64,000 nt of DNA from an uncultured delta proteobacterium (lineage in GTDB: Bacteria > Desulfobacterota > Binatia > Binatales > Binataceae): contig CAVURG010000006.1 in NCBI GenBank assembly GCA_963743865.1, positions 163,188 to 227,187 on the forward strand. The letters are read 5' to 3'. Within the stretch, counting starts at the first letter, position 1. The number at the start of each line of letters is the position of its first letter. The notes below the pieces were generated by a model. That model was given only the letters and a program-made list of their open reading frames with translations, was not told where the DNA came from and ran no database searches. Shown here one piece after another: positions 27,185 through 39,703 of the stretch. Position numbers and translations under genes: made by a program.

Positions 27185-28341
27185 AGATCTGTGTTGGCAG
27201 CGCCGGCCGGTTTCACGCCTTCGATCTGGCGCGCCAGATGGAACGCCTCGGCCATCTGACCCGCCTCTACACTGCCTATCCGCGCTGCAAGGTGGATGGA
27301 CTGCCCGCCGCGAAAGTGAGTACCTTCCCCTGGATCATGGGACCCGCGACGCTCGCGGGACGATTCGGACTGCCGGGGCTTCGCGAGCGCCTGAATTTTC
27401 CGATGATCGAGACGTTCGATCGCTGGATGGCTGCGCGGCTCGAGCCCTGCGACGTTTTCCATTGCCTGTCCAGCTTCGGCTTGCAGAGCCATCGCGCGGC
27501 GCGCATGCGCCACGGCGCGCTTACGGTATGCGACCGCGGTTCGGCGCACATCGTTTTCCAAAATGAGATTCTGCGCGAGGAATATGCCCGCTTCGATATC
27601 CCATATCGCGGTACCGACGCGCGCATCGTCGAGCGCGAGCTTGCCGAGTACGAATTCTGCGACCTGATCAGCGTGCCGTCCAGCTTCGCGCTGCGATCGT
27701 TCCTCGAGAAAGGCGCGGCGCGCGAAAAGCTGCGGCTTAATCCCTACGGCGTCGATCTCTCGATGTTCCATCCGATGCCCAAGCGCGACGCCGTCTTCCG
27801 CGTGCTGTTTGTCGGTTCGATTTCGATTCGCAAGGGAATCGCTTACCTGCTCGAGGCGGTAAAGCGCGCTGCGATTGGGGCGCTTGACCTGGTGCTGATT
27901 GGAGACGTCGATAAGGACGCGGCGCGCGTCCTCGCCAAGTGTGATATGCCCCTGCGCCATCTGGGCGTGCTCCCCCGCGCCAAACTCGCGGAGCATTATT
28001 CGCAGGCGTCTGTGCTGGTCCTCCCATCGCTGGAAGAAGGGCTGGCGCTGGTGCAGGCGCAGGCGATGGCGTGCGGCGTCCCGGTGATCGCGACGACCAA
28101 CACCGGCGCCGAGGATCTGTTTACCGACGGTGTCGAAGGGTTCATCGTTCCGATCCGCGACGCGGCCGCGATTGCCGACAAGATCGTCTTTCTGTACGAG
28201 CATCCCGAAGTCCGCGACGCGATGGCTGCCGCCGCTCTTGCCCGGGTGCGCGCGCTGGGCGGATGGAACAGCTACGGCGAGCGGATGGCGTCGATGTATC
28301 AGGCCGCGCTTGCCGCACGCGCATCCGCGGCGATGAAATAG
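27181..28341 (+). CDS. glycosyltransferase family 4
   Basis: GTGA overlap with the previous gene; RKG..YLLEA; VLVLPSLEEGLALVQAQAMACGVPVI. Confidence 0.92.
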   Translation: MKICVGSAGRFHAFDLARQMERLGHLTRLYTAYPRCKVDGLPAAKVSTFPWIMGPATLAGRFGLPGLRERLNFPMIETFDRWMAARLEPCDVFHCLSSFGLQSHRAARMRHGALTVCDRGSAHIVFQNEILREEYARFDIPYRGTDARIVERELAEYEFCDLISVPSSFALRSFLEKGAAREKLRLNPYGVDLSMFHPMPKRDAVFRVLFVGSISIRKGIAYLLEAVKRAAIGALDLVLIGDVDKDAARVLAKCDMPLRHLGVLPRAKLAEHYSQASVLVLPSLEEGLALVQAQAMACGVPVIATTNTGAEDLFTDGVEGFIVPIRDAAAIADKIVFLYEHPEVRDAMAAAALARVRALGGWNSYGERMASMYQAALAARASAAMK

Positions 28342-28347
28342 TTATCG

Positions 28348-29292
28348 GTGGACCGCATGATGCGTGAACAAATCATCGGGCGCGCCAAAGCCCTGATTCG
28401 GCCGGTCGCGCGGCATCGGTTTCTGCTCGAGCGCATGAAATTTCTGGGCGAGACTATACTCAGTGCTGAGCAGGGCAATGACCGATTGGCTGCGATGATC
28501 CATCACGGCGGCGCGGCGGGCAAAATTGGCGCGACCGAGATCAAGGTCTCACGAGTTTACCTGCGCCGGCGCGACGACGACGGCCTCTGTCACAATTTCG
28601 GCCACTATGCATGGTGGGCGCACGTCACCGCCGGCATCTATCCGCCCGATCCCCCGACGCTGTCGCGCTTTTGCCGCTGCTACCTGGAAACTCTCGAAGG
28701 TATTGACCTGCTTGCCGTGTGGTTCAATTTCGGCGAGGCCGCCGCCCGCCGGCGCTATGCTCCCGGCGCAACGCTGTGCGAGCTTTCTGCGCTTGAGCCG
28801 TATTACCATGAGCGGCCATGGAGCGCGCAGTTGGCAGGTAAACGGGTCGTGGTGGTAAGCCCGTTCGAGAAGTCGATCCAGGCTCAATATCAGCGGCGGG
28901 AAAAGATTTGGGCGGCCAAGCCCGAGGTGCTGCCCGCGTTCGATCTCCGCATCGTGCGATGCCCGCAGCCTGCGGGGATTATCGACCGGCCCGAATATCC
29001 CGACTGGTTCACCGGGCTGGAAGCGCTGAAAGCGCAGCTCGGCGCCCGTCCGTTCGATGTCGCGATTATAGGTGCGGGCGCATGGTCGATACCGCTGGCG
29101 ATCCATGCGAAGTCGTTGGGCGCCTTCGGGATTCATCTGGGCGGAGCGACGCAGTTGCTATTCGGGATTATGGGCGGGCGATGGGTATCCAATCCGGAAA
29201 TCGGCGCGTTCGTGAATGACGCGTGGACGCGCCCGTCCGAAGACGAGCGGCCGCGAAATTACCGCCTTCATGAAAACGGTTCGTACTGGTGA
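28348..29292 (+). CDS. conserved polysaccharide-locus protein (possible GT-D-like fold)
   Basis: LSALEPYYHE.PWS..L.GKRVVVVSPF..SI..QY, FDVAIIG.GA..IPLA.HAK..G..GIHLGGATQLLFGI.G.RW. This pattern is recalled from glycan loci; the fold assignment is tentative. Confidence 0.6.
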   Translation: MDRMMREQIIGRAKALIRPVARHRFLLERMKFLGETILSAEQGNDRLAAMIHHGGAAGKIGATEIKVSRVYLRRRDDDGLCHNFGHYAWWAHVTAGIYPPDPPTLSRFCRCYLETLEGIDLLAVWFNFGEAAARRRYAPGATLCELSALEPYYHERPWSAQLAGKRVVVVSPFEKSIQAQYQRREKIWAAKPEVLPAFDLRIVRCPQPAGIIDRPEYPDWFTGLEALKAQLGARPFDVAIIGAGAWSIPLAIHAKSLGAFGIHLGGATQLLFGIMGGRWVSNPEIGAFVNDAWTRPSEDERPRNYRLHENGSYW

Positions 29293-29336
29293 ATTGAAGA
29301 TTCCGTTGATCCGCTCTTTTGGAAATCGGAGATTGC

Positions 29337-30434
29337 GTGCGAATCCTTTACGCTGAGACGAGCGACTTTCTGCCCACCAGCGCGCACTTTCTGGAAGCGC
29401 TCGCGGCGATGGCGGAGCGCGGCGAATGCGAGTTCACGTTCTTCGATGAAGCCGGGTATCGCCGCCCGCAGCGTTCGATCGCGGGGCGAATCGTGCGGCG
29501 CCTGGCCGGCCACCCGGCCGGTTATCGCGCGCTCAACGCCGCGCTCATAGCCGAGGCGCGGCGCTTGCACCCCGATCTCGTGCTGATCGGCAAGGGCGCC
29601 TATTTCGCTCCCGCCACAATTGCCGCGGTTCGCACCGCGACGGGAGCATCGATGGTCAACTGGGCCACCGACGATCCTTTCAACCCGGCCAACAGCACCC
29701 GCGACCTGCTTGAATCGATCGCACTCTACGACCTCTACGTATGCACCAAGCGCGCGATAATGGACGACGCGCGGCGCGCGGGATGCGCCAACGTCGCCTA
29801 CCTCCGCTTCGGATACAAGCCGCAGGTGCATTTTCCCGAGGCGCCCGCGACCGATGACGAGGCGCGGCGCTTCGAATCCGACGTGACATTTATCGGCGGC
29901 GGGGACGATGACCGCGCTCCATACTTCGAGACGATCGTCCGCGCGATCCCGGAGCTTCGCCTGCATCTGCACGGCGGTTACTGGAATCGCTATCCGAAGC
30001 TGCGCCCATATTGGCGCGGCAGCGCAACCGGGCGCGATTTCCGTCTCGCGGTCGGCGGCGCAAAAATTTCGGTCAATCTGGTGAGGCGCGCGAATCGGGA
30101 CGATCACGTAATGCGCACCTTTGAAATTCCCGCGTGCGGCGGCTTCATGCTCACGGAGAGATCCGCCACCCACGATGAATTATTTTCCGAAGACAAGGAA
30201 GCGGCGTTTTTCAACTCGCCCGATGAACTGGTCGCCAAGGTCCGCAGTTATCTTGGGCGCGATGAAGATAGAGTCAGGATTGCCGCCGCGGGGCATCGCA
30301 AAATCACTCAGGGGCGGCATACCTACGACGATCGGCTGGCGGAAATTATCCAGGCTGCGCGATCGGTGAAAGGATTGCAGAGGCCGGCGACGGTTGGCGC
30401 CGCGCAAACCAATGAGATCGAATCGAATGGCTGA
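29337..30434 (+). CDS. CgeB/DUF3880-type glycosyltransferase (Glyco_trans_1_2)
   Basis: GTG start after GGAG; VNWATDDP; AKISVN; HVMRTFEIPACGGFML; HTYDDR. Confidence 0.85.
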   Translation: MRILYAETSDFLPTSAHFLEALAAMAERGECEFTFFDEAGYRRPQRSIAGRIVRRLAGHPAGYRALNAALIAEARRLHPDLVLIGKGAYFAPATIAAVRTATGASMVNWATDDPFNPANSTRDLLESIALYDLYVCTKRAIMDDARRAGCANVAYLRFGYKPQVHFPEAPATDDEARRFESDVTFIGGGDDDRAPYFETIVRAIPELRLHLHGGYWNRYPKLRPYWRGSATGRDFRLAVGGAKISVNLVRRANRDDHVMRTFEIPACGGFMLTERSATHDELFSEDKEAAFFNSPDELVAKVRSYLGRDEDRVRIAAAGHRKITQGRHTYDDRLAEIIQAARSVKGLQRPATVGAAQTNEIESNG

Positions 30435-30435
30435 A
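30418..30435 (+). repeat. 18-bp direct repeat, copy 1 (TCGAATCGAATGGCTGAA)
   Basis: Identical to 31409-31426; contains overlapping ATG start and TGA stop. Confidence 0.9.
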
Positions 30436-31425
30436 GCCTTCAAGCAACCTATGGCGCAATTGTCAGTAGGGAGCGATTGTCCAATCTGCATGAGTCCGCG
30501 AGCGCTTCAACTAGCTCATCGCTTTGAAGAAGACCCATATTATGTCGTGACGTTGTAAGGCATGCTGCGTCGAGACGATCCTGCCTCATCCTACAAGCAG
30601 GCTTTTGAAGGAATTCTATTCCGACTACCACAATACTCGAACCGCCGAAGAGCAAATGCCGCTTCTCATCGGGCGATCCGTTGAATTGCTCGAAGTGTTG
30701 CTAAGTCATCTGCCTCTTGCTCCAGGACGAAAGCCGTTGCGATACATGGAAGTGGGATTCGGCAACGGAGCGAGTCTGCTGGCCGCGGCTCAACTGGGTA
30801 TGGAGGCTGTTGGCTTTGATTTGGATCCGAGCAACGTACGGGAAGTTACCCAACGGGCTCAGTCCAGAGGTCTCAGTGTGCAGCTCCGATGCGGCGATAT
30901 CGGTGAGGCTATCGAGGGAACGGAACCGGTCGACTTCGTCAAGGCTTCGCAGTTGATCGAACACCTCATCGATCCTGTTAGTTTTGTCCGATCAATCTCA
31001 AAGGTAATGACGCCCAGGGGGTATCTTTACCTCGAATGTCCGAACAACAACGCGGCGTTTCTTCGAATCAAGAATCGACTCCGAAAACGATTCGCGCGAA
31101 TGAATTTCTACAATTCCCTCAAGATCGGCAAGCATCTCTGGGGTTTCAGCCAGTCTGGCATGAACCGGCTGTTGCGGCTTTCAGGCTATGAAGTGGTATT
31201 CTGCTCTAGCTATCCGCTTCGCCATCGCTATTTCCAGCCGGAAAATCTCTTTTGGTATCCAAGTGTGCGGTCCGGCGTGGCCGAAGCATTTCGAGTCGGC
31301 AAGCGTTTCCTCTTTTGAAGTCGATGATTCCTGTCTTCGACGGCTTGGCGTCTTTCGCGCTTTCGGAAGGAATAGGACTCGCAACGCTGGCGCGAAAGCA
31401 GGATGAAGTCGAATCGAATGGCTGA
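30427..31425 (+). CDS. class I SAM methyltransferase with N-terminal CxxC..CxxC Zn ribbon; frameshifts at ~30551 and ~31315
   Basis: MAEAF..CPIC + RCKAC joins ORF 30605..31318 (MEVGFGNG, SQLIEHLIDP, LYLECPN) after a 1-bp correction. A second shift continues LKSMIP...QDEVESNG*. Visibly AT-richer than neighbours. Confidence 0.75.
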
Positions 31426-31426
31426 A
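31409..31426 (+). repeat. 18-bp direct repeat, copy 2
   Basis: Identical to 30418-30435. Confidence 0.9.
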
Positions 31427-32948
31427 CAGTTCGAATCCGCGCCGCTGCGTCCGCCGGATGACGAGTGGTATGCGCGAATCACCACGCCGAGGCCGGGGTC
31501 CGCCAGTCTGGGCAAGGCGCTGAAGCTGTTGGCGGCGGTCGCAATCGCGTTGATCGCTCTGAACCTCTACGCTCCCGCTTCGCCGACGATCCTCGAGCGA
31601 GTATTCGCGTCCGCGATACTGGCCTCGCTCGCGCTTCCGGTCTGGCTATGGATGTCAGGCGCGGATCGAACGATTCCGTTCATGCCATTCCTGACGCTGA
31701 TGTTCGCCTATTACTACGCGCTGCCGGTTTTCCTGTTGCACCGATATGCCACCGGACTGTTCAAGCCGCCTGTTGCCGAACATTTCATCACACTCGCGCT
31801 CGGATACTCACTACTCGGTCTCTACTGCATGTTTGCCGGATACTATGGACCGGCGAGATGGCTATTCGCACCGATACTACCGCGATTCAACTTGCAATGG
31901 CGCGACGAGCGAGTAGTGAGGCTGGTCGCGCTGATGCTGGGAGTCGGGGGATTGTTCATGTCCTCCTCGCAGTGCCGCGTTTCTGCCCGAGAGTCTGGCC
32001 CAGATCGGCGTATTCGCGGCTGACTTATCGATGGTTGGAATCTGCACGCTGGTCGCGCTTCAGTTGGCGGGAAGACTGGATCGGATCACATCGGTGTTCG
32101 TCTGGGGGTTTCTGATTCCGGTCAGAATCGCAATCGGCCTGGGCAGCGGCTCGGCCGGGGGCCGTCTGATGGTCGGCGTCGCCGTCGCAATGATTTTCGC
32201 TTCCGTGCGCCGATCGATCCCATGGAAGACGCTGACTGCTGGGCACTATCGTGGCGGTGTTCATCATCCGGCCCGCAGAGGTGCCGTATCGCGCGGCGAC
32301 CTGGGGCGGAAGATTATCGGATGCGGGCGCGATCGAGAAAGCCCGCCTGTACGGAGATATTCTTTACCGCATCACGATCGGCGGGGCGGTGGAGCCGCAA
32401 GTGCTGATCGAATTCGGAAGCCTGCGCCTGGCGCAATTCACAACGTTCGGCGAAGTAATCGCGGACACGCCCGCAATGGTGCCTTTTTGGGGGGGCGAGT
32501 CTTACTATCCGATCCTGTTCAAACCGATTCCGCGCGTCGTCTGGCCGGACAAACCGGAAGAGTTGAGCGGACAAACGTTTGGCCATCGCTACGCCTTGAT
32601 CTCCGCCGGGAACACTGACACTTCGATCAATCTTCCGCAGCTAGTCGAGTTGTATGCGGAACTTCGGACTCACCGGAGTGATCGCGGGGATGTTCATATT
32701 CGGGTTGATCTACCGGCTGCTGATCGAGATGTACGTTCATCCCGGAATGGGGCTCGGCGCTCTGGTTGGCGCCGTTTACGTTTCGTCGAAGTTGCTTGAT
32801 GTCGGCTCCGCCGCCTCGATGGTTTTCGGAGGGATCCCATGGAGCCATCATCTTCATCGCGCTGATTCACCTGTTCATCCAATTCGCAGAGGTTGACGCG
32901 ATGGCGCTGGGGCAGCTTGGCTTCGAAAAAGGAGTCCGCCGTATCTGA
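31418..32948 (+). CDS. Wzy-like polysaccharide polymerase (multi-TM), about 4 frameshifts
   Basis: Fragments 31403..32023, 32031.., 32251..32799, 32654..32896 and 32766..32948 join into a polytopic protein with IPRVVWPDKP and ELYA-NFGLTG motifs typical of Wzy. Confidence 0.68.
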
Positions 32949-33002
32949 TCCAGTCACAATTCAACGCGAATATTACCGGCGCACCGCGTCGCAATATGAC
33001 GA
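32945..33002 (+). repeat. 58-bp direct repeat, copy 1 (copy of the 5' end of the 34472 methyltransferase)
   Basis: CTGATCCAGTCACAATTCAACGCGAATATTACCGGCGCACCGCGTCGCAATATGACGA, identical to 34479-34536. Confidence 0.92.
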
Positions 33003-34419
33003 GCTGCGCCTTGTGCAGCCCGCCGCCTGATCGCGGGCCGGCGATCGTGTTCCGCGCGACGCTGGCGCTAACGCTCGCCAACGCGCTCTGGTTCATCTGG
33101 TCAAACCGGTTCATCCCGATGTCGGACTATCCCGACTGGGTATACCAGGGGTGGATACTTTCGGGCATCCTGCGCGGTGCCGCCCATCCGCTGTATCACT
33201 TCAGATCGTATCCTCCAACGCACGCCGCAGTCACAATAGCCACCGCTCTTCTCGACTACGGCTTCGGTGCAGAGACCTCGGCAAAGCTGGTGTTGTCAAG
33301 CGCGGTCTGCGCATTCGCGATTGGCAGCACCTACCTTCTGAAAGCGTGTGGGGCCTCCGAGCGGCACCCGCTTCTGTATGTGCCGCTGCTGTTCATCTTC
33401 GACACTTGGTTCTTCACCGGCGAGATTGATTATTATCTCGCCTTGACGGGGTTCTTCTTTCTGGCGGGATATCTGCTGCGGCGCGCGGACTCGCCCGGTC
33501 GAATTAACCCGCTGGTCGTGCTCGTGGGTCTTCTGGCGATTTTTGTGGCGCATTTGATCGTCTACCTGGCGTGCGGCGCTGTTTGTATCGCGATAGTTCT
33601 TGCGCATCCAAGCCCGGTCAAGGCGCGCCGACTCCTGCTGCCGGCGCTGGCCTCGGTGCCGATCCTCGCATGGTATGTGCTGGGCCGGGCGACGTCTCAT
33701 GACTTGGGCACTCAGCCGCTTTTGGTGCCCTGGACGGCCCGCCAGCTCGCCAGCAACTTCATCGATGCGTTCTCGCTGTTTCACGCGTTTGCGCCGTGGC
33801 TCAGTCCGCACTCGAAGTTGATGCACCTAGCGGCTATGTGCAACTTGATCAGCGATGGCGGCATCTTTACTCTCTTTTGCGTGTGCGCGGTGATGTGGTT
33901 CAGGGGTACTCGTGATGATGCCGCGCCCCTGCTCGCAGCCCTGTTGTGCCTGATCGGATACGTCGCAGGAGGCTATGCGATCGCCGGTGTGTTCGGCGCG
34001 GAACGCCTGACCTACCCGGCTGCATGGCTGGTCCTTGCATGGCTGGCTGGAAATTGGACTCCCGCGCGAGAGTCTGCCCGCCTCGTAGCCATCTGTGTGA
34101 TTGGCGCCGTGCTAGCTATTCAGTGCGTTTACGTCGATCATGCCGTGGGACAAGTGTGCGACCGCTTGGCCCAAACCTCGCCGATCGCCTCGCGCAAGCG
34201 CCGTCGCGCAAGGACCTCTGTTCGATATACGAGCCTTACTTCCAGCAAAGCTGGGGCGGCCAACACCGTAGCGGCTGGGAGCGCTTCGTTCCGGACCACG
34301 CCAGTGTCATTCGCCTGCCGTATTATCTCTATATAGAGCGGGGAGAGGCGGCCCCTATTTTTGAAGCAGGGATCTTCAATTATTCGGGGCGTGGAGATAA
34401 CAACGACCTGTGCAGGTAG
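32996..34419 (+). CDS. polytopic membrane protein, GT-C-like; one frameshift ~34175
   Basis: About 11 TM segments; PMSDYPDW acidic motif after TM1; soluble C-terminus continues in ORF 33946..34419. Confidence 0.6.
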
Positions 34420-34471
34420 CCTGTTCGCGCTTGCCGTCGCGCAAGGCGCAATTGCGAGGGGAAGCGAATAG

Positions 34472-35188
34472 ATGACGGCTGATCCAGTCACAATTCAACG
34501 CGAATATTACCGGCGCACCGCGTCGCAATATGACGACCGGCACGTGCACTCGGATGGTGAGCATACGTTCGCGCTGTGGTTCATGGTGTCGATGATCCGT
34601 TACTTGGAGTGCCGCTCAGTGCTGGACATTGGCTCTGGAACCGGGCGCGCGCTGATAATGCTCAAGAAAGAGATGCCCGGGATTCGAATCTGCGGGATAG
34701 AGCCGTCACCTGAACTACGGGCCGCGGCGCAAGCGAAGGGCCTGGCGCCGCATGAGATAGTGGATGGCGACGCGCAGGCGCTCAAATATCCCGACGGTGA
34801 CTTCGACCTGGTGTGCGCCTTCGGCGCATTGCATCACATTCCGAAGCCCTCGCTTGCGGTCGGCGAGATGCTGCGGGTATCCAGGCGAGCGATCTTCATC
34901 TCGGACGCAAACAACTTCGGCCAGGGCTCGACGCCGGCGCGCGCTGTCAAACAGATCGCGAACTTCCTCGGACTATGGCCGTTGCTCGATTTCATCAAGT
35001 CGCGGGGTAAGGGCTATCGCCTCTCGGAAGGGGACGGTCTTTCATACTCCTATTCTGTATTCAACGATTACGCGCAGGTCCTGCGCGCCTGCGCGTCCGT
35101 CCATCTATTGAACACGACGGCAGCGGGCGTGAATCCGTATCGGACCGCATCGCATGTCGCGCTGCTCGGCATCAAATCAGGATCGTAA
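34472..35188 (+). CDS. class I SAM methyltransferase
   Basis: SVLDIGSGTG, GIEPS, DGDAQALKYPDGDFDLVCAFGALHHI. Confidence 0.88.
   Translation: MTADPVTIQREYYRRTASQYDDRHVHSDGEHTFALWFMVSMIRYLECRSVLDIGSGTGRALIMLKKEMPGIRICGIEPSPELRAAAQAKGLAPHEIVDGDAQALKYPDGDFDLVCAFGALHHIPKPSLAVGEMLRVSRRAIFISDANNFGQGSTPARAVKQIANFLGLWPLLDFIKSRGKGYRLSEGDGLSYSYSVFNDYAQVLRACASVHLLNTTAAGVNPYRTASHVALLGIKSGS
34479..34536 (+). repeat. 58-bp direct repeat, copy 2
   Basis: Identical to 32945-33002. Confidence 0.92.
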
Positions 35189-35190
35189 GG

Positions 35191-36448
35191 GTGATTTTTT
35201 CAGACGAAGACGCCGGCGCAATCCGCGTCCTGCACGTAAGTCCGTTCTTCGCACCAGCGTGGGTTTACGGCGGACTGGTCGAGTCGGCCTATCAGTTCGC
35301 CCGGCATCTGGCGCGCGCGGGAGCGGCGGTTCGGGTGCTGACCACGGACGCGAACGGATCGGGAAAGAAGCTGGACTCGGCGGCGAAGGCGCCGTACACG
35401 CGCGGCCAGGGATTCGAAGTTCGCTACTGCGCGCGAGTCGCGCGTCAGTCGGTATCGCTCGAGCTTCTCGGCGCGCTCGTCGAACAGGTGCGATGGGCCG
35501 ACGTGGTTCATCTGCACGCGGCGTACTCGTTTCCGACTATTCCAGCCTTACTCGTGGCGCGGATGCTGGAACGGCCGGTGGTATGGACTCCGCATGGCGC
35601 GCTGCAGCGCTGGAGCGGGTCGCGGCGAACCGCGGCTCAAGTCGCTGTGGGAGAAGGTGTGCAGCCTGGTTGCGCCGCGCGCCCTGGTGCTTCACCTGAC
35701 CTCGCAGAGCGAGGTCGAGGAAACTCGCGCACGGTTTCCGCGCGCCGCCATCGGACTGATTCCTAACGGAGTCGAGATTCCGCAATCGCTTCAGCGCGAG
35801 CCACGCGGCGCTGGGCTGCGGCTCGGATTTGTCGGCCGCCTCGATCCCAAGAAGGGAATTGAGAATCTGCTCGCCGCCTGTCGCATTCTGAAAGAGCGGG
35901 GCGGGCCGGTTTTTTCGCTCGCGATCGCGGGTTCGGGCTCGAGCGGCTACGAGGCAAAACTTCGCCGCGAGATCGATCGCCTCGATCTGTCCGGCGAGGT
36001 CGCACTTCTTGGCGACCTTCGCGGCGAGGAAAAACAGCGGATGTTCGAGCGGACCGACGTCGTCGTGGCGCCGTCGTTCACCGAGAATTTCGCGATAGTC
36101 GTAGCCGAAGCACTGGCGCACGGCGCCGCCGTGATTGCGAGCACCGGCACTCCGTGGAAAGAAGTCGAAAAGATGGGCTGCGGGCTGTGGGTCGGCAACG
36201 ATCCCGCGAGCCTGGCGGACGCAATCTCCACGGTAAGCACGATGCCCGTCGCAGAGATGGGTGAGCGCGGACGGCGGTGGATGGCGGCCGCCTTTTCGTG
36301 GGACAAATGCGCGCTGCAAATGCTGGCGCTCTACCAAGACCTGCTGGCTCGGCCCGGCGATCGGGATGCGCGCCGCCGCGCATCGGTGGTAAGCCGATGC
36401 GGCTCTCCGCGTGGTTGTGCGGATGGCGCGCCGCCACCGGGACGATGA
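35191..36448 (+). CDS. glycosyltransferase family 4; frameshift ~35630
   Basis: N-part RVLHVSP..YGG..., VWTPHG; C-part FVGRLDPKKGIENL, APSFTENFAIVVAEALAHG. The true C-terminus is uncertain. Confidence 0.85.
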
Positions 36449-37875
36449 CAACGTTCGCGCGACGCGAGTGGTTATTCATTGCGCTGGTGGCTGCGTTCTG
36501 CGCCATCTTTCTGCTCGAGTATCCGGCCTCGTTCGCAATCGCCGACGAGTGCGAGATCCTCTCGCTCGCCTACAGCATTGCGCACGGCACGGCTTATCCC
36601 GACCGTGCCGGACTGCTCACCTGGAACCCGTCGATGGAACTCGCGGTCGGCGGCCACCGCATCGTCAAGTACTCGCCGTTTCACGCGATGCTGCTGGCGC
36701 CGGCGGTTGCGAGCGACTGGCGGCTCGGTTTCCTGGTGAGCGCGGCGTTTTTCATCGTGGGCGCGTTTGCGGTGCGTGCGATGCTCCGCGACGCGGGACT
36801 CGCGACCGACTGGTGCATCCTGTATTTCCTGCTGCCCGGGATGCTCTACTACTCGGCCACGCTGATGGCCGCCGTTCCGAGCGCGGCGATGGGCGCAGTC
36901 GGAGTCGCTCTGCTGTGGCGCGAACGCGCGCGCCGCGTATCGGGAGCGCTCGCGCTCGGCGCCGCGGTCCTGCTGCATGAGTGGATGGCGGTATTTGCGA
37001 TCGCGTCGGCGGGAGCGTGGTGGCTGTCGCGGCCGCGCGCCCGGCGATGGTCCGACGCGGTGGCGCTCGCGGCGGGCGCCGCGCCGGCGATTATTGCGCT
37101 CGGAGCGTACAACTATGCCACCACGGCGTCGGCGCTGCGCGGAGGCTACGCGATCAACGGCGAGGCCTTCTGGTTTACCGGCGAGCACTTCGCGTCGTTC
37201 TTCCCGTTCTACGTCGCATCGATCGTGATTTTCCCGGTAGCCGGACTTGCAGCGCTTTCGCCGCGATGGTCGCGAGGTTGGCAAACGCCGGCCGCGGTGG
37301 CTGCCGTAGTGCTGGCGGCGTCGCTCTACGGTTATCGCGACGGCCTTACCAGCGGACTCACGCCGGCGATGGCGATGCTCGCGGGTGCGGTCCCCGGGCA
37401 ACGCTTTATCCTGCCGGCATCGGTAGTCGCGTGCGTGCCGGCGGTGCGATGGCTCGATCAGCGGCTCGGGCAACGGGGATTCGCCTGGACCACCGCGCGC
37501 CGGTGCGCGGCGCTCGCCGCCTTCGTGGCATGCTTCGGGGTGATGGCCACGCTCCACCAGGACTTCCTGCGCGCCAACGCTGCGGTGCAGACGGCGATCG
37601 CGCGCGCGGTTCCGGCCGGAGGACAAATCGTGGGCGCCGGCGAGGTGCTCAAGGAACTCGCGCCCGTGTACCGAAACGTCCGGCTGCGCCAGGTGGCTCC
37701 CGACGATCCCAATGTCGCGTCCGCCGCCGATTCATACCTGGTCTGGATGGGCGCGCCCGGCGCCGAGCCGCCGCCGGATTGGACGCGCGGCAGGACGACC
37801 GAACTGGTCCGTGCGCGGTCGTGGGCATGGAATCGCGATCTCTGGATCGCCTGGCCCCGCGCCGCCCACGCTTAG
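36397..37875 (+). CDS. polytopic membrane protein, GT-C-like
   Basis: IADECE acidic motif after TM1, about 12 TM segments, QRFILP motif, short soluble C-domain. Start is 36397 or 36445. Confidence 0.6.
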   Translation: MRLSAWLCGWRAATGTMTTFARREWLFIALVAAFCAIFLLEYPASFAIADECEILSLAYSIAHGTAYPDRAGLLTWNPSMELAVGGHRIVKYSPFHAMLLAPAVASDWRLGFLVSAAFFIVGAFAVRAMLRDAGLATDWCILYFLLPGMLYYSATLMAAVPSAAMGAVGVALLWRERARRVSGALALGAAVLLHEWMAVFAIASAGAWWLSRPRARRWSDAVALAAGAAPAIIALGAYNYATTASALRGGYAINGEAFWFTGEHFASFFPFYVASIVIFPVAGLAALSPRWSRGWQTPAAVAAVVLAASLYGYRDGLTSGLTPAMAMLAGAVPGQRFILPASVVACVPAVRWLDQRLGQRGFAWTTARRCAALAAFVACFGVMATLHQDFLRANAAVQTAIARAVPAGGQIVGAGEVLKELAPVYRNVRLRQVAPDDPNVASAADSYLVWMGAPGAEPPPDWTRGRTTELVRARSWAWNRDLWIAWPRAAHA

Positions 37876-37951
37876 CTCATCGGTTTGCGCACGGTGACGT
37901 ACGCGCAACAATTTGGAGAAATATAAGGCAAGAATCAGTTCGCGGGCATCA

Positions 37952-39703
37952 ATGTTAGTCGTAGGAATCAACGCATATCACGGCGACGCGAGCGCAGCCG
38001 CAATCGTGGACGGGATGCTGGTGGCAGCCGCGGAAGAGGAGCGCTTCAACCGCATCAAGCACGCCGCCGGCTTTCCGGCTGAGGCCTTGAAGTACGTGGT
38101 GTCTGCCGCCGGCGCATCGCCGCGCGACATCGACATCATTGCCGTCGCGCGCGATCCGTGGGCGCGAATCATGCGCAAGGCGTGGTACGCGCTGAAGATG
38201 CCGTCGGCTGCGCGCGACAGGCTGAGCGTGCAATCGCGCTTTGCCTCGATTGGCGCGGAGGCCGCGCGCGCGCTGGGCGCCGGCGGGAGTTCGATTCCGG
38301 TGCGCCGCGTCGAGCACCATCGCGCGCATCTCGCGAGTTCGTTTCTGGTCTCTCCGTTCGACCAGGCGGCGCTGCTGTCGATCGACGGGTTGGGCGACTT
38401 CGCCAGCGCGATGTGGGGCGTGGGGCGCGGCGGTACGATTTCGCCGATGGGCGTGGTGACATTTCCGCATTCGCTGGGAATCTTCTACACCGCGCTGACG
38501 CAGTACCTGGGGTTTCCGAAATACGGCGACGAATACAAGGTGATGGGGCTGGCGTCGTACGGGGAGCCGGAGATGCTCGAGGAGTTCCGCAAGATCGTGA
38601 TCGCGCCCGACGGCGGGCGCATGGATTTCATGCTCGCGCCGGAATATTTCACCCATCAGAGGTCGGGCGGTGAGATGACGTGGCGTGCAGGCGAGCCCAC
38701 GATCGGAAGGCTGTACTCGGACTTCCTGGTGACCCGGCTGGGCCCGGTGCGCGATCCGGCCGAGCCGGTGGACAAACGCCATATCGCGATCGCGGCGTCG
38801 ATGCAGCGGCGGCTCGAAGAAGTGATAATCGATCGGCTGCGAAACTTGCAGCGCGCGACCGGACTGAAAAAGCTCTGCCTTGCGGGCGGCGTTGCCTTCA
38901 ACTGCGTGGTCAACGGCAAGATCCTGGAGCAGACGGGCTTCGAGGACATCTATATACAGTCGGCGGCGGGCGATGCGGGCCTGGCGATAGGCGCGGCTTT
39001 CGACCAATGGCATTCGAGCCCGTCGCGGCCGCGCGAGTTCGTGATGGAGCATGCCAATTGGGGGCCCGAATTCAGCGCCGATAAGATCGCGGGATTACTC
39101 AGATCGCGCGAATCTGAAATAGCCAGTCAGGGCTGCGTGATTAGCAAGATCGAAGATGAAGACGAACTCTGCCGCGCCACTGCCGCGACGATCGCGGATG
39201 GGCAGGTCGTGGGATGGTTCCAGGGGCGGATGGAGTGGGGTCCGAGGGCGCTGGGCAATCGCAGTATCCTGGCCGACCCGCGCCGGGCCGGGATGCGCGA
39301 CATCCTGAATTCGAAAATCAAGCGCCGCGAAATGTTCCGGCCCTTTGCGCCTTCGATTCTGGAGGAAGCCGCCGCTGACTACTTCACGCAGTCCTATCCG
39401 TCACCATTCATGCTGATGGCATACTCAGTGCGGCCCGAGAAGCGCGCGGTAATTCCGGCCACGACCCACGTTGACGGAACGGGACGGCTGCAGACGGTGA
39501 GTGCGCGGCAGAACCCGCTATACCACAAGCTGATCCGCGAGTTCGGCCGCCAGACCGGAGTGCCGGTGCTGCTCAACACCTCATTTAACGAAAACGAACC
39601 GGTGGTTTGTCGCCCCGAACAGGCGCTCGATTGTTTCCTCAGAACGAAAATGGACCTGCTGGTGATGGGACAGTTCGCCGTTCGCCGCGGCGGCGGGAAC
39701 TAG
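37952..39703 (+). CDS. carbamoyltransferase (NodU/CmcH/TobZ family)
   Basis: GINAYHGDASAA, AEEERFNRIKH, VEHHRAH, IDGLGD, EYKVMGLASYG, AGGVAFNC, GWFQGRMEWGPRALGNRSILADP, THVDGTGRLQTV, LLNTSFN. Confidence 0.95.
   Translation: MLVVGINAYHGDASAAAIVDGMLVAAAEEERFNRIKHAAGFPAEALKYVVSAAGASPRDIDIIAVARDPWARIMRKAWYALKMPSAARDRLSVQSRFASIGAEAARALGAGGSSIPVRRVEHHRAHLASSFLVSPFDQAALLSIDGLGDFASAMWGVGRGGTISPMGVVTFPHSLGIFYTALTQYLGFPKYGDEYKVMGLASYGEPEMLEEFRKIVIAPDGGRMDFMLAPEYFTHQRSGGEMTWRAGEPTIGRLYSDFLVTRLGPVRDPAEPVDKRHIAIAASMQRRLEEVIIDRLRNLQRATGLKKLCLAGGVAFNCVVNGKILEQTGFEDIYIQSAAGDAGLAIGAAFDQWHSSPSRPREFVMEHANWGPEFSADKIAGLLRSRESEIASQGCVISKIEDEDELCRATAATIADGQVVGWFQGRMEWGPRALGNRSILADPRRAGMRDILNSKIKRREMFRPFAPSILEEAAADYFTQSYPSPFMLMAYSVRPEKRAVIPATTHVDGTGRLQTVSARQNPLYHKLIREFGRQTGVPVLLNTSFNENEPVVCRPEQALDCFLRTKMDLLVMGQFAVRRGGGN

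What the first reader, a model, noticed from the sequence alone, without database searches (positions are those of the whole stretch)
32945..34536. Membrane-protein gene bracketed by an exact 58-bp duplication of the downstream gene's 5' end
Copy 1 overlaps the wzy-like stop (TGA 32946-32948) and supplies, in another frame, the ATG (32996) of the inserted GT-C-like gene. Copy 2 is codons ~3-22 of the 34472 methyltransferase. An AAGGAG just before copy 1 precedes GTA-TCT-GAT-CCA, resembling a decayed original start. The 100% identity implies a recent event, and recombination between the copies would delete 1534 bp.
Basis: partly seen in the sequence, partly recalled or inferred. Interest (0 to 1): 0.7.

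Follow-up and report, generated by a model that had tools for sequence, protein, structure and literature searches.

The report
Leftover gene stub beside a membrane gene
The exact 58-base repeat is real, but it is the leftover front end of a methyltransferase gene that once sat upstream of the membrane-protein gene in a sugar-polymer operon whose genes are often reshuffled, which makes it an ordinary scar rather than a fresh insertion.

Summary
The 58-bp exact direct repeat (32945-33002 = 34479-34536) is real. It occurs only twice in the genome and is present in three independent assemblies. In short-read graphs it is a 58-nt node at twice the depth of its neighbours.

The organism is an uncultured Candidatus Binatus (Binatota) MAG. 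The assembly carries about one indel per kb. The reported ATG 32996 "in another frame" depends on one such extra C at 33019. The conserved start of the membrane gene is GTG 33013.

The membrane gene is not an insert, because every relative found has one. Some relatives have the order wzy-MT-mem-GT4. Against them the window lacks 666 nt (the MT body) upstream of mem, and has about 755 nt (spacer plus MT) downstream of it.

Copy 1 is therefore the 5' stub of a lost upstream MT copy. It was joined in frame to mem at an AGCTG microhomology. The same junction occurs in a diverged clade, where the stub has decayed at 5-9 of 58 positions. So the scar appears old. Its perfect identity here most likely reflects gene conversion from copy 2, or a recent repeat of the same deletion.

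This is an ordinary relic of cassette reshuffling and of modest interest.

The parts
31403..32948 (+). wzy-like polytopic membrane protein gene. It is intact in G008 (513 aa). In the window it is split by four extra bases at 31970, 32234, 32657 and 32843. Its last codons read through the MT ribosome-binding site, and its stop TGA 32946-32948 lies inside copy 1.
   Evidence: The Pfam match to O-ag_pol_Wzy is weak (E 0.009, below the cut-off). The extra bases at 32657 and 32843 are absent from the run contigs covering them. The two at 31970 and 32234 are known only from the comparison with G008.
32917..33012 (+). Relic of the upstream methyltransferase gene. It holds TTG 32917 (the start that a gene caller uses for the intact MT at this position in relatives), AAGGAG 32929-32934, the decayed GTG>GTA at 32941-32943, MT codons up to about +63, and 10 nt derived from the old MT-mem spacer. 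It is in frame with memX.
   Evidence: The global alignment places window 32600-33011 on L030 11181-11590, then skips L030 11591-12256, then resumes in memX.
32945..33002 (+). Copy 1 of the exact 58-nt repeat, the core of the relic.
33013..34419 (+). memX, a 467-aa polytopic membrane protein of an uncharacterised and rare family, possibly of GT-C type. The frame is intact once the assembly's extra C (33019) and CG (34179-34180) are left out, and is then 463/468 identical to G008.
   Evidence: The fold search gives only weak GT-C hits.
34420..34471 (+). Intergenic spacer with the present MT ribosome-binding site (GAGGGGAAG). Only its first ~20 nt are shared with the post-mem sequence of other locus types. 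The origin of the rest is unknown.
   Evidence: No other match was found in the genome or in held loci.
34472..35188 (+). Class I SAM-dependent methyltransferase gene (238 aa), intact.
   Evidence: Pfam Methyltransf_11 (E 1.7e-17) and Methyltransf_25. It is 92-94% identical in DNA to the MT of L027 and G002.
34479..34536 (+). Copy 2 of the repeat, running from the second base of MT codon 3 into codon 22.
35191..36448 (+). GT4-family glycosyltransferase gene, the conserved right-hand neighbour. It is split in the window by an extra G at 35632.

Best explanation
The window lies in a polysaccharide-synthesis operon of an uncultured Candidatus Binatus (Binatota) genome.

Copy 1 is a pseudogene stub. 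It holds the ribosome-binding site, a decayed start and the first ~63 nt of a methyltransferase gene that once lay between the wzy-like gene and the membrane gene memX. This is the arrangement still seen in relatives with the order wzy-MT-memX-GT4.

In the lineage of the window the MT now lies downstream of memX. The upstream copy lost its body, 666 nt including the old spacer. The deletion ran between two AGCTG microhomologies and fused the stub in frame to the GTG start of memX.

The simplest history is a stage with an MT on both sides of memX, followed by loss of one copy or the other. The stub appears old: an identical junction occurs in a clade about 10% diverged. Its perfect identity to the live MT 5' end in the window clade is most likely due to gene conversion from copy 2 across the 58-63 nt of shared sequence. 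The alternative is a recent recurrence of the same microhomology deletion from two full MT copies that had been kept alike.

Shown: the repeat, the assembly indels, the locus types, and the positions of the 666-nt and ~755-nt differences. Inferred: the order of events, the microhomology mechanism and the gene conversion.
For: 1. The repeat is real and is held by independent assemblies and unitig graphs.
2. Type 1 loci (L027, L030, L031, L038-L041, from at least five samples) have wzy, then a full MT in exactly the context of copy 1, then memX starting at the same GTG, then GT4.
3. In the global alignment the window differs from L030 by one 666-nt gap (L030 11591-12256) upstream of memX and by ~755 extra nt (window 34423-35176) downstream.
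4. The post-repeat bases of copy 1 (GAGCTGC) match ancestral MT sequence (L027 GAACTGCACGTG, G002 CAGCTGCACGTA). The next bases, CGCCTTGTGCAG, match the L030 spacer GGCCACTGTGCAG. AGCTG occurs at the left deletion end in the window's and G002's MT, where L030 reads AACTG, and at the right end in the L030 spacer.
5. The same junction is present in L033-35 (stub-memX-MT-GT4), in L020, L025, L036 and L037 (stub-memX-GT4, no MT) and in L032 (stub-memX-other MT). Those stubs differ at 5-9 of 58 positions from live MT 5' ends, and at 7 of 58 from L033's own MT.
6. memX is not foreign. A mem gene is present in all locus types, and homologues start at the position of GTG 33013.
7. The window's extra bases are absent from the short-read contigs that cover them and from G008. 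Leaving them out gives an intact 467-aa memX.
Against: - No locus with an MT on both sides of memX was found, so the proposed intermediate is hypothetical.
- The origin of the 30-40 nt just upstream of copy 2 (window 34440-34478) is unexplained.
- Gene conversion over only 58-63 nt is feasible but infrequent. In L026 copy 1 already differs from copy 2 at one base, and in L033 the two copies have diverged freely.
- The statistical case against simple non-decay is weak. Zero changes were seen where about three were expected, so P is about 0.05.
- Only one lineage with the type 1 order was sampled, so the direction of some changes at the junction cannot be polarised.
Confidence: 0.78

Rival explanations
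1. The membrane gene was recently inserted into the 5' end of the methyltransferase gene of a wzy-MT locus, and the event duplicated 58 bp of the target.
For: - The structure has the form flank-R-insert-R-flank.
- The flank upstream of copy 1 is the MT's own upstream region.
- Loci with wzy directly followed by the MT exist.
- The block 32800-35000 is about 99% identical between G000 and G008, against 93-96% in most flanks. This shows recent exchange of the block as a whole.
Against: - In the wzy-MT loci memX lies immediately after the MT, so they are not empty sites.
- All locus types carry a mem gene.
- The same left junction exists in a clade ~10% diverged, with decayed stubs.
- Nothing in the 1476 nt between the copies suggests mobility. 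It holds only memX and a spacer, and there are no terminal inverted repeats.
- A 58-bp target duplication fits no known transposition mechanism (own knowledge).
Confidence: 0.07
2. The stub is a selected functional element. It would act as a portable translation-initiation leader (MT ribosome-binding site, start and first ~20 codons) that drives or couples translation of whatever cassette follows wzy. Selection, not conversion, would then keep it intact.
For: - The stub is in frame with memX, with no stop or indel, in all five lineages that carry it.
- TTG 32917 is the start that a gene caller uses for the intact MT at this position (L040), and it is retained in the window.
- In G005 and L028 the same stub forms a 22-codon mini-ORF with ATG and RBS. 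Its TGA overlaps the ATG of a different methyltransferase cassette (GAATGAAG), a classic coupling arrangement.
- There are no changes in the stub in G000 and G008.
Against: - Stubs of the other clade have 5-9 changes in 58 nt, mostly non-synonymous in the MT frame (P>S, V>G, Y>H, R>W, S>A).
- There is no RNA structure above shuffled controls (z = 0.1) and no Rfam or promoter-like hit.
- Type 1 loci express memX without any stub, from a 24-nt spacer.
- Gene callers mostly start memX at the GTG after the stub.
Confidence: 0.12
3. Assembly artefact. The two copies would come from two strains joined at a shared 58-mer.
For: The genome is a metagenome-assembled genome with many indel errors.
Against: - The same arrangement occurs in G008 and in contig L026.
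- The unitig depths of flanks and middle piece are equal, and the repeat node is at twice that depth.
- A 58-nt repeat is shorter than ordinary reads, and the window contig is 3.57 Mb long.
Confidence: 0.02

Closest known systems
Gene remnants at cassette junctions of surface-polysaccharide loci (O-antigen, capsule and EPS clusters), where truncated copies of neighbouring genes mark past recombination (own knowledge of E. coli/Salmonella O-antigen and pneumococcal cps loci)
   Same: A short 5' fragment of a neighbouring gene lies at a junction inside a glycan operon. Related strains carry different gene orders and alleles between conserved flanking genes. No mobile-element genes are present.
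   Different: Here the remnant is still 100% identical to the live gene over 58 nt and is fused in frame to the next gene. The host is an uncultured Binatota lineage in which such loci have not been described.
Minimal mobile elements of Neisseria (Saunders & Snyder 2002; Snyder et al. 2007). [quoted passage not shown]
   Same: The conserved flanks (wzy-like and GT4) hold different contents in different strains: memA or memX; MT, another MT or none; and either order. Identity between species is mosaic, which points to homologous exchange. There is no recombinase.
   Different: Minimal mobile elements swap whole cassettes cleanly. Here the rearrangement left a partial gene duplicate, and it involves a change of gene order rather than presence or absence only. 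Natural transformation is unknown for this organism.
Gene-order change by duplication followed by loss of one copy (the tandem-duplication/random-loss model, best known from organelle genomes; own knowledge)
   Same: Two alternative orders of the same two genes exist. Partial relics of the lost copy lie at the old position: the 5' stub upstream of mem in the window type, and a possible 3' stub downstream of mem in type 1.
   Different: The doubled intermediate has not been observed. The spacer in front of the downstream MT is not explained by a simple tandem duplication.

Membership tests
Target-site duplication of a transposable element | Short (2-14 bp) direct repeats flanking an element that has terminal inverted repeats and/or a transposase | tested here: not met
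   The repeat is 58 bp. No inverted repeats lie at the ends of 33003-34478. The segment encodes only memX and a spacer.
Gene remnant (pseudogene fragment of a neighbouring gene) | Homology to one end of an intact gene that extends into that gene's own upstream signals | tested here: met
   Copy 1, its 16-33 nt upstream (AAGGAG, GGCTTCGAAAA) and 5 nt downstream all match MT starts of L030, L033, G002 and G005.
Gene remnant (pseudogene fragment of a neighbouring gene) | An intact gene occupies the same position in relatives | tested here: met
   L027, L030, L031 and L038-41 have a full MT between wzy and memX. A single 666-nt gap separates them from the window there.
Gene remnant (pseudogene fragment of a neighbouring gene) | Decay of the fragment in lineages where it is not renewed | tested here: met
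   Stubs of L020, L025, L032, L033 and L036 differ at 5-9 of 58 positions from live MT 5' ends, which differ from each other at 2-6.
Minimal mobile element (Neisseria type) | Two conserved genes with different whole-gene cassettes between them in different strains | tested here: met
   Six arrangements occur between wzy and GT4.
Minimal mobile element (Neisseria type) | Spread by homologous recombination in the flanks after DNA uptake | tested here: inconclusive
   The mosaic identity profile between two species, with a 99% block at 32800-35000, fits this feature. DNA uptake cannot be tested.
Integron gene cassette | A folded attC recombination site at the cassette boundary | tested here: not met
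   The 58-nt element and its surroundings fold no better than shuffled sequence (z = 0.10, -0.42 and 1.39). An integrase was not searched for.
GT-C fold glycosyltransferase (for memX) | Polytopic fold like ArnT, AftB or STT3, with an acidic motif in the first external loop | tested here: inconclusive
   The model has pLDDT 66 and pTM 0.68. The best PDB hit is AftB at E 0.027 and TM 0.34, followed by ALG9 and the yeast/human oligosaccharyltransferase complexes at E 0.7-0.9. An invariant D38-Y-P-D41 follows the first helix. There is no Pfam hit.
Class I SAM-dependent methyltransferase (for the 34472 gene) | Match to methyltransferase domain profiles above their cut-offs | tested here: met
   Methyltransf_11 scores 64.3 bits against a cut-off of 21.2, and Methyltransf_25 scores 60.4 against 27.

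The most novel reading that the evidence does not exclude
The operon may diversify by a regular junction-preserving cassette exchange. Under this reading, the MT leader (RBS, start and first ~20 codons) and similar stop/start junctions are duplicated or kept on purpose, so that each new or moved cassette inherits working translation signals. The stub in front of memX, the mini-ORF coupled to another MT in G005 and the 18-bp junction repeat around the neighbouring MT1 gene would then be products of one recurrent, selection-filtered process without a recombinase, not unrelated scars.
Probability: 0.15. Interest if true: 0.55.

Novelty: new member of a known kind. Interest (0 to 1): 0.3.

Why it matters
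The case documents how gene order changes inside a surface-glycan operon of an uncultured phylum. One gene was copied to the other side of its neighbour, the old copy was lost by a microhomology deletion, and a stub remained fused in frame to the next gene.

It is also a caution for annotation. This long-read MAG has about one indel per kb. These indels create false pseudogenes and, here, a false overlapping-frame start codon.

If the stub proves to be used for translation, it would show how relics can be recruited as ready-made initiation regions during cassette exchange. As it stands, this is an ordinary recombination scar.

Tried and rejected
- RNA element: the repeat and both of its contexts fold no better than shuffles. 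There was no Rfam match at E <= 0.1 in 30000-37000. No promoter-like site was found, and terminator-like sites were not above expectation.
- Empty-site reading of L027: I first took L027 for the allele lacking the insert. A 73-nt memX match at the end of the locus and the fuller loci L030 and L031 showed that memX lies after the MT there, so I dropped this reading.
- Origin of the spacer in front of copy 2 (34420-34478): short-word BLAST against the whole genome and all loci found only itself and its orthologues.
- The idea that L020-type loci arose from the window type by deleting the MT between TCGCGCT-like microhomologies: the alignments were too weak to decide. Deriving them from type 1 by the 666-nt deletion alone is simpler.
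- Other contexts of the element seen as loose ends of X4 contigs: no 16-mer of them occurs in any held sequence.
- An intermediate with MTs on both sides of memX: not found among the members of the memX cluster looked up.
- Getting more of the JGI contig behind L027 through the genome search failed because the record is not held. An exact-protein look-up solved this instead.
Full report
**Observation**

The two copies, 32945-33002 and 34479-34536, are identical over exactly 58 nt and lie 1534 nt apart. The 58-mer occurs nowhere else in the 3.67-Mb genome. Copy 1 contains the stop of the wzy-like frame (TGA 32946-32948). Copy 2 runs from the second base of codon 3 into codon 22 of the methyltransferase (MT) gene that starts at 34472.

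**Is it an assembly artefact?**

No. The window is C6:163188-227187 of a metagenome-assembled genome consisting of a 3.57-Mb contig and ten small ones. A genome of another species of the same genus, G008, has the same arrangement at 98-99% identity with both copies identical. Metagenome contig L026 also holds both copies.

In Logan unitigs of runs X1 and X2 the graph breaks at the repeat. There is a 58-nt node at depth 33.8 (X1) and 32.1 (X2), a 1533-nt middle piece at 16.4 and 14.1, and flanks at 15.8/13.7 and 12.6/13.1. This is what a two-copy repeat looks like when every genome carries the middle piece.

**Quality of the window**

Against G008 the window shows 13 indels in 12 kb, nine of them 1-2 extra bases. 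The four indels inside 32300-35300 (32657, 32843, 33019 and 34179/80) are absent from the contigs of every run that covers them. This includes contigs that are otherwise identical to the window.

These indels split several genes that are intact in G008: the wzy-like gene, the first methyltransferase MT1, memX and the GT4 gene. Without the extra C at 33019 and the CG at 34179-80, memX is an intact 467-aa frame from GTG 33013 to TAG 34419. It is then 463/468 identical to G008.

As assembled, the GTG frame stops after five codons and the ATG 32996 frame is open. In G008 the ATG frame stops after 24 codons. The "ATG supplied in another frame" is therefore an artefact.

**Organism and locus**

Record titles of related loci name Candidatus Binatus and Binataceae MAGs. 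G005, labelled as the same genus as the window, lies on a contig of the same length (73,982 bp) as the Candidatus Binatus sp. SPRUCE 224 record. Binatota is an uncultured phylum (PMC8262859).

The genes around the finding are glycosyltransferases, methyltransferases and polytopic membrane proteins. memX belongs to a rare family. Only 8 clusters were found among 5.8 billion proteins, and there is no Pfam match. An AlphaFold model of moderate quality (pLDDT 66, pTM 0.68) gives only weak GT-C hits. The best is AftB at E 0.027 and TM 0.34. An invariant D-Y-P-D motif follows the first helix.

**Locus types in relatives**

| Type | Loci | Arrangement |
|---|---|---|
| Type 1 | L027, L030, L031, L038-41 (at least five samples) | wzy-MT-memX-GT4 |
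| Type 2, window clade | G000, G008, L026, L029 | wzy-stub-memX-MT-GT4 |
| Type 2, old clade | L033-35 | Same order as type 2. A 150-nt spacer precedes an MT that begins AAGGAGTCCGCAGTG. |
| Type 3 | L020, L021, L025, L036, L037 | wzy-stub-memX-GT4, no MT |
| L032 | L032 | wzy-stub-memX, then a different 217-aa MT, then GT4 |
| Type 4 | G002 | wzy-memA-MT-GT4. memA is 38% identical to memX. |
| Type 5 | G005, L028 | wzy-memA, then a 22-codon MT stub whose TGA overlaps the ATG of the other MT |

A mem gene is thus a constant member of the operon. It is not an insert.

**What copy 1 is**

In type 1 a full MT lies exactly where the window has copy 1, with the same upstream context (GGCTCCGAAAAAGGAGTCCGCC...). 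In the global alignment, window 32600-33011 pairs with L030 11181-11590. L030 11591-12256 (666 nt, the MT body plus spacer) has no counterpart in the window. The alignment then resumes at the memX start.

Downstream of memX, window 34423-35176 (~755 nt, spacer plus MT) has no counterpart in L030. So compared with type 1 the MT has changed sides, and copy 1 is the 5' stub of the lost upstream copy.

The bases after copy 1 (GAGCTGC) are MT sequence. Compare L027 GAACTGCACGTG and G002 CAGCTGCACGTA. The next bases, CGCCTTGTGCAG, correspond to the end of the L030 spacer, GGCCACTGTGCAG. AGCTG stands at the left deletion end in the window's and G002's MT (L030 itself reads AACTG there) and at the right end in the L030 spacer. 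This points to a microhomology-mediated deletion, which is an inference. The fusion is in frame with memX.

**Age**

The same junction is present in the old type 2 clade and in type 3, whose memX is about 10% diverged from the window's. There the stub differs at 5-9 of 58 positions from live MT 5' ends. Live MT 5' ends differ from one another at 2-6 positions. In L033 the stub differs at 7 of 58 from that locus's own MT. The scar therefore appears to be old.

In the window clade the stub shows no change at all in G000 and G008, and one change in L026. Its 16-nt upstream flank differs at 3 of 16 positions from the L033 or L030 equivalents. With roughly three changes expected, zero observed gives P of about 0.05.

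Two explanations fit:
- Gene conversion from copy 2, limited to the 58-63 nt that the two sites share.
- A recent, independent recurrence of the same AGCTG deletion in an ancestor that still had two full MT copies kept alike.

I favour conversion slightly. The junction bases CGCCT-GTG are shared by both clades and differ from the type 1 spacer. The block 32800-35000 is about 99% identical between G000 and G008, against 93-96% in most flanks. The present form has therefore been exchanged recently between species as a unit.

**Could the stub be functional?**

- It stays in frame with memX, without stops, in all lineages that have it.
- TTG 32917 is the start a gene caller uses for the intact MT at that position (L040).
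- In G005 the stub forms a mini-ORF coupled to another cassette.

Against this:
- The stub decays, with mostly non-synonymous changes, in the other clade.
- It has no RNA structure or known RNA family.
- Type 1 loci express memX without it.

I keep this as a minor rival.

**Relation to earlier notes**

An earlier follow-up on the neighbouring MT1 gene (30418-31426) described an 18-bp junction repeat and a cassette hot spot resembling minimal mobile elements. My loci show different contents at that junction too:
- a 324-aa MT in G000 and G008;
- a PMT_2-like protein in G002;
- nothing in G005;
- a 245-251-aa MT elsewhere;
- an acyltransferase next to it in L032 and L036.

The operon as a whole is a mosaic of exchangeable single-gene cassettes between conserved genes. 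This matches the definition of minimal mobile elements quoted in PMC3082526.

**Verdict**

It is wrong on three points: the membrane gene is not an insertion, the event is not recent, and the ATG frame is an artefact. The feature is a gene relic left by a gene-order change in a glycan operon. That is a known kind of scar, seen here in a new lineage.

Noticed in passing
window 27500-39411: There are 13 indels against G008 in 12 kb, nine of them 1-2 extra bases in the window (for example 30550, 31970, 32234, 32657, 32843, 33019, 34179-80, 35632). They split MT1, the wzy-like gene, memX and GT4 into false pseudogenes. The genome's estimated completeness is only 82.6%, which fits a long-read assembly that was not fully polished.
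   Followed up: partly
L013 6990-7058 (G005), also L028: A 22-codon relic of the MT start, with RBS and ATG intact, ends in a TGA that overlaps the ATG of a different 217-aa methyltransferase (GAATGAAG). The relic looks like a coupling leader for the replacing cassette.
   Followed up: partly
L030 12210-12233 and 13672-13697: In wzy-MT-memX-GT4 loci the last ~14-30 nt of the MT (GTCAGGATCGTAAG plus weaker similarity upstream) recur after memX, directly before GT4. This could be a 3' relic of a former downstream MT, or simply the conserved GT4 ribosome-binding region.
   Followed up: partly
L012 5570-5600 (G002) and L013 5505-5530: After the wzy stop of memA-type loci, the sequence AAGTAGTCCGCCGGTCAGTCACAC resembles the window's AAGGAGTCCGCCGTATCTGATCCAGTCACAA. 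This may be a shorter and older MT-start relic in front of memA as well.
   Followed up: no
L033 5432-5540 (also L034, L035): There is an AT-rich stretch of about 110 nt, of unknown origin, between memX and the downstream MT in a GC-rich operon. It has no match in the window's genome.
   Followed up: partly
window 32974, 34445 and 34535 (run X4): Contigs of soil metagenome X4 leave the window sequence inside or beside the 58-nt element and run on with unrelated sequence. No 16-mer of that sequence is found in any held locus. Further locus types that use this element as a junction probably exist.
   Followed up: partly
window 27500-39400 vs L011: Identity between two species of the genus is a mosaic. 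Blocks of 98-100% (28400-29200, 30600-30800, 31000-31400, 32800-35000) lie among stretches of 88-95%. This indicates frequent homologous exchange within the operon.
   Followed up: partly
window 33013-34419 and homologues P0001-P0015: The memX family is very rare: 8 clusters among 5.8 billion proteins, with no Pfam domain. It has an invariant N-R-F-x-P-x-x-D-Y-P-D motif after the first helix and a conserved Cys-containing C-terminal soluble part (F-C-x-I-Y ... R-L-P-Y-Y ... L-C).
   Followed up: partly
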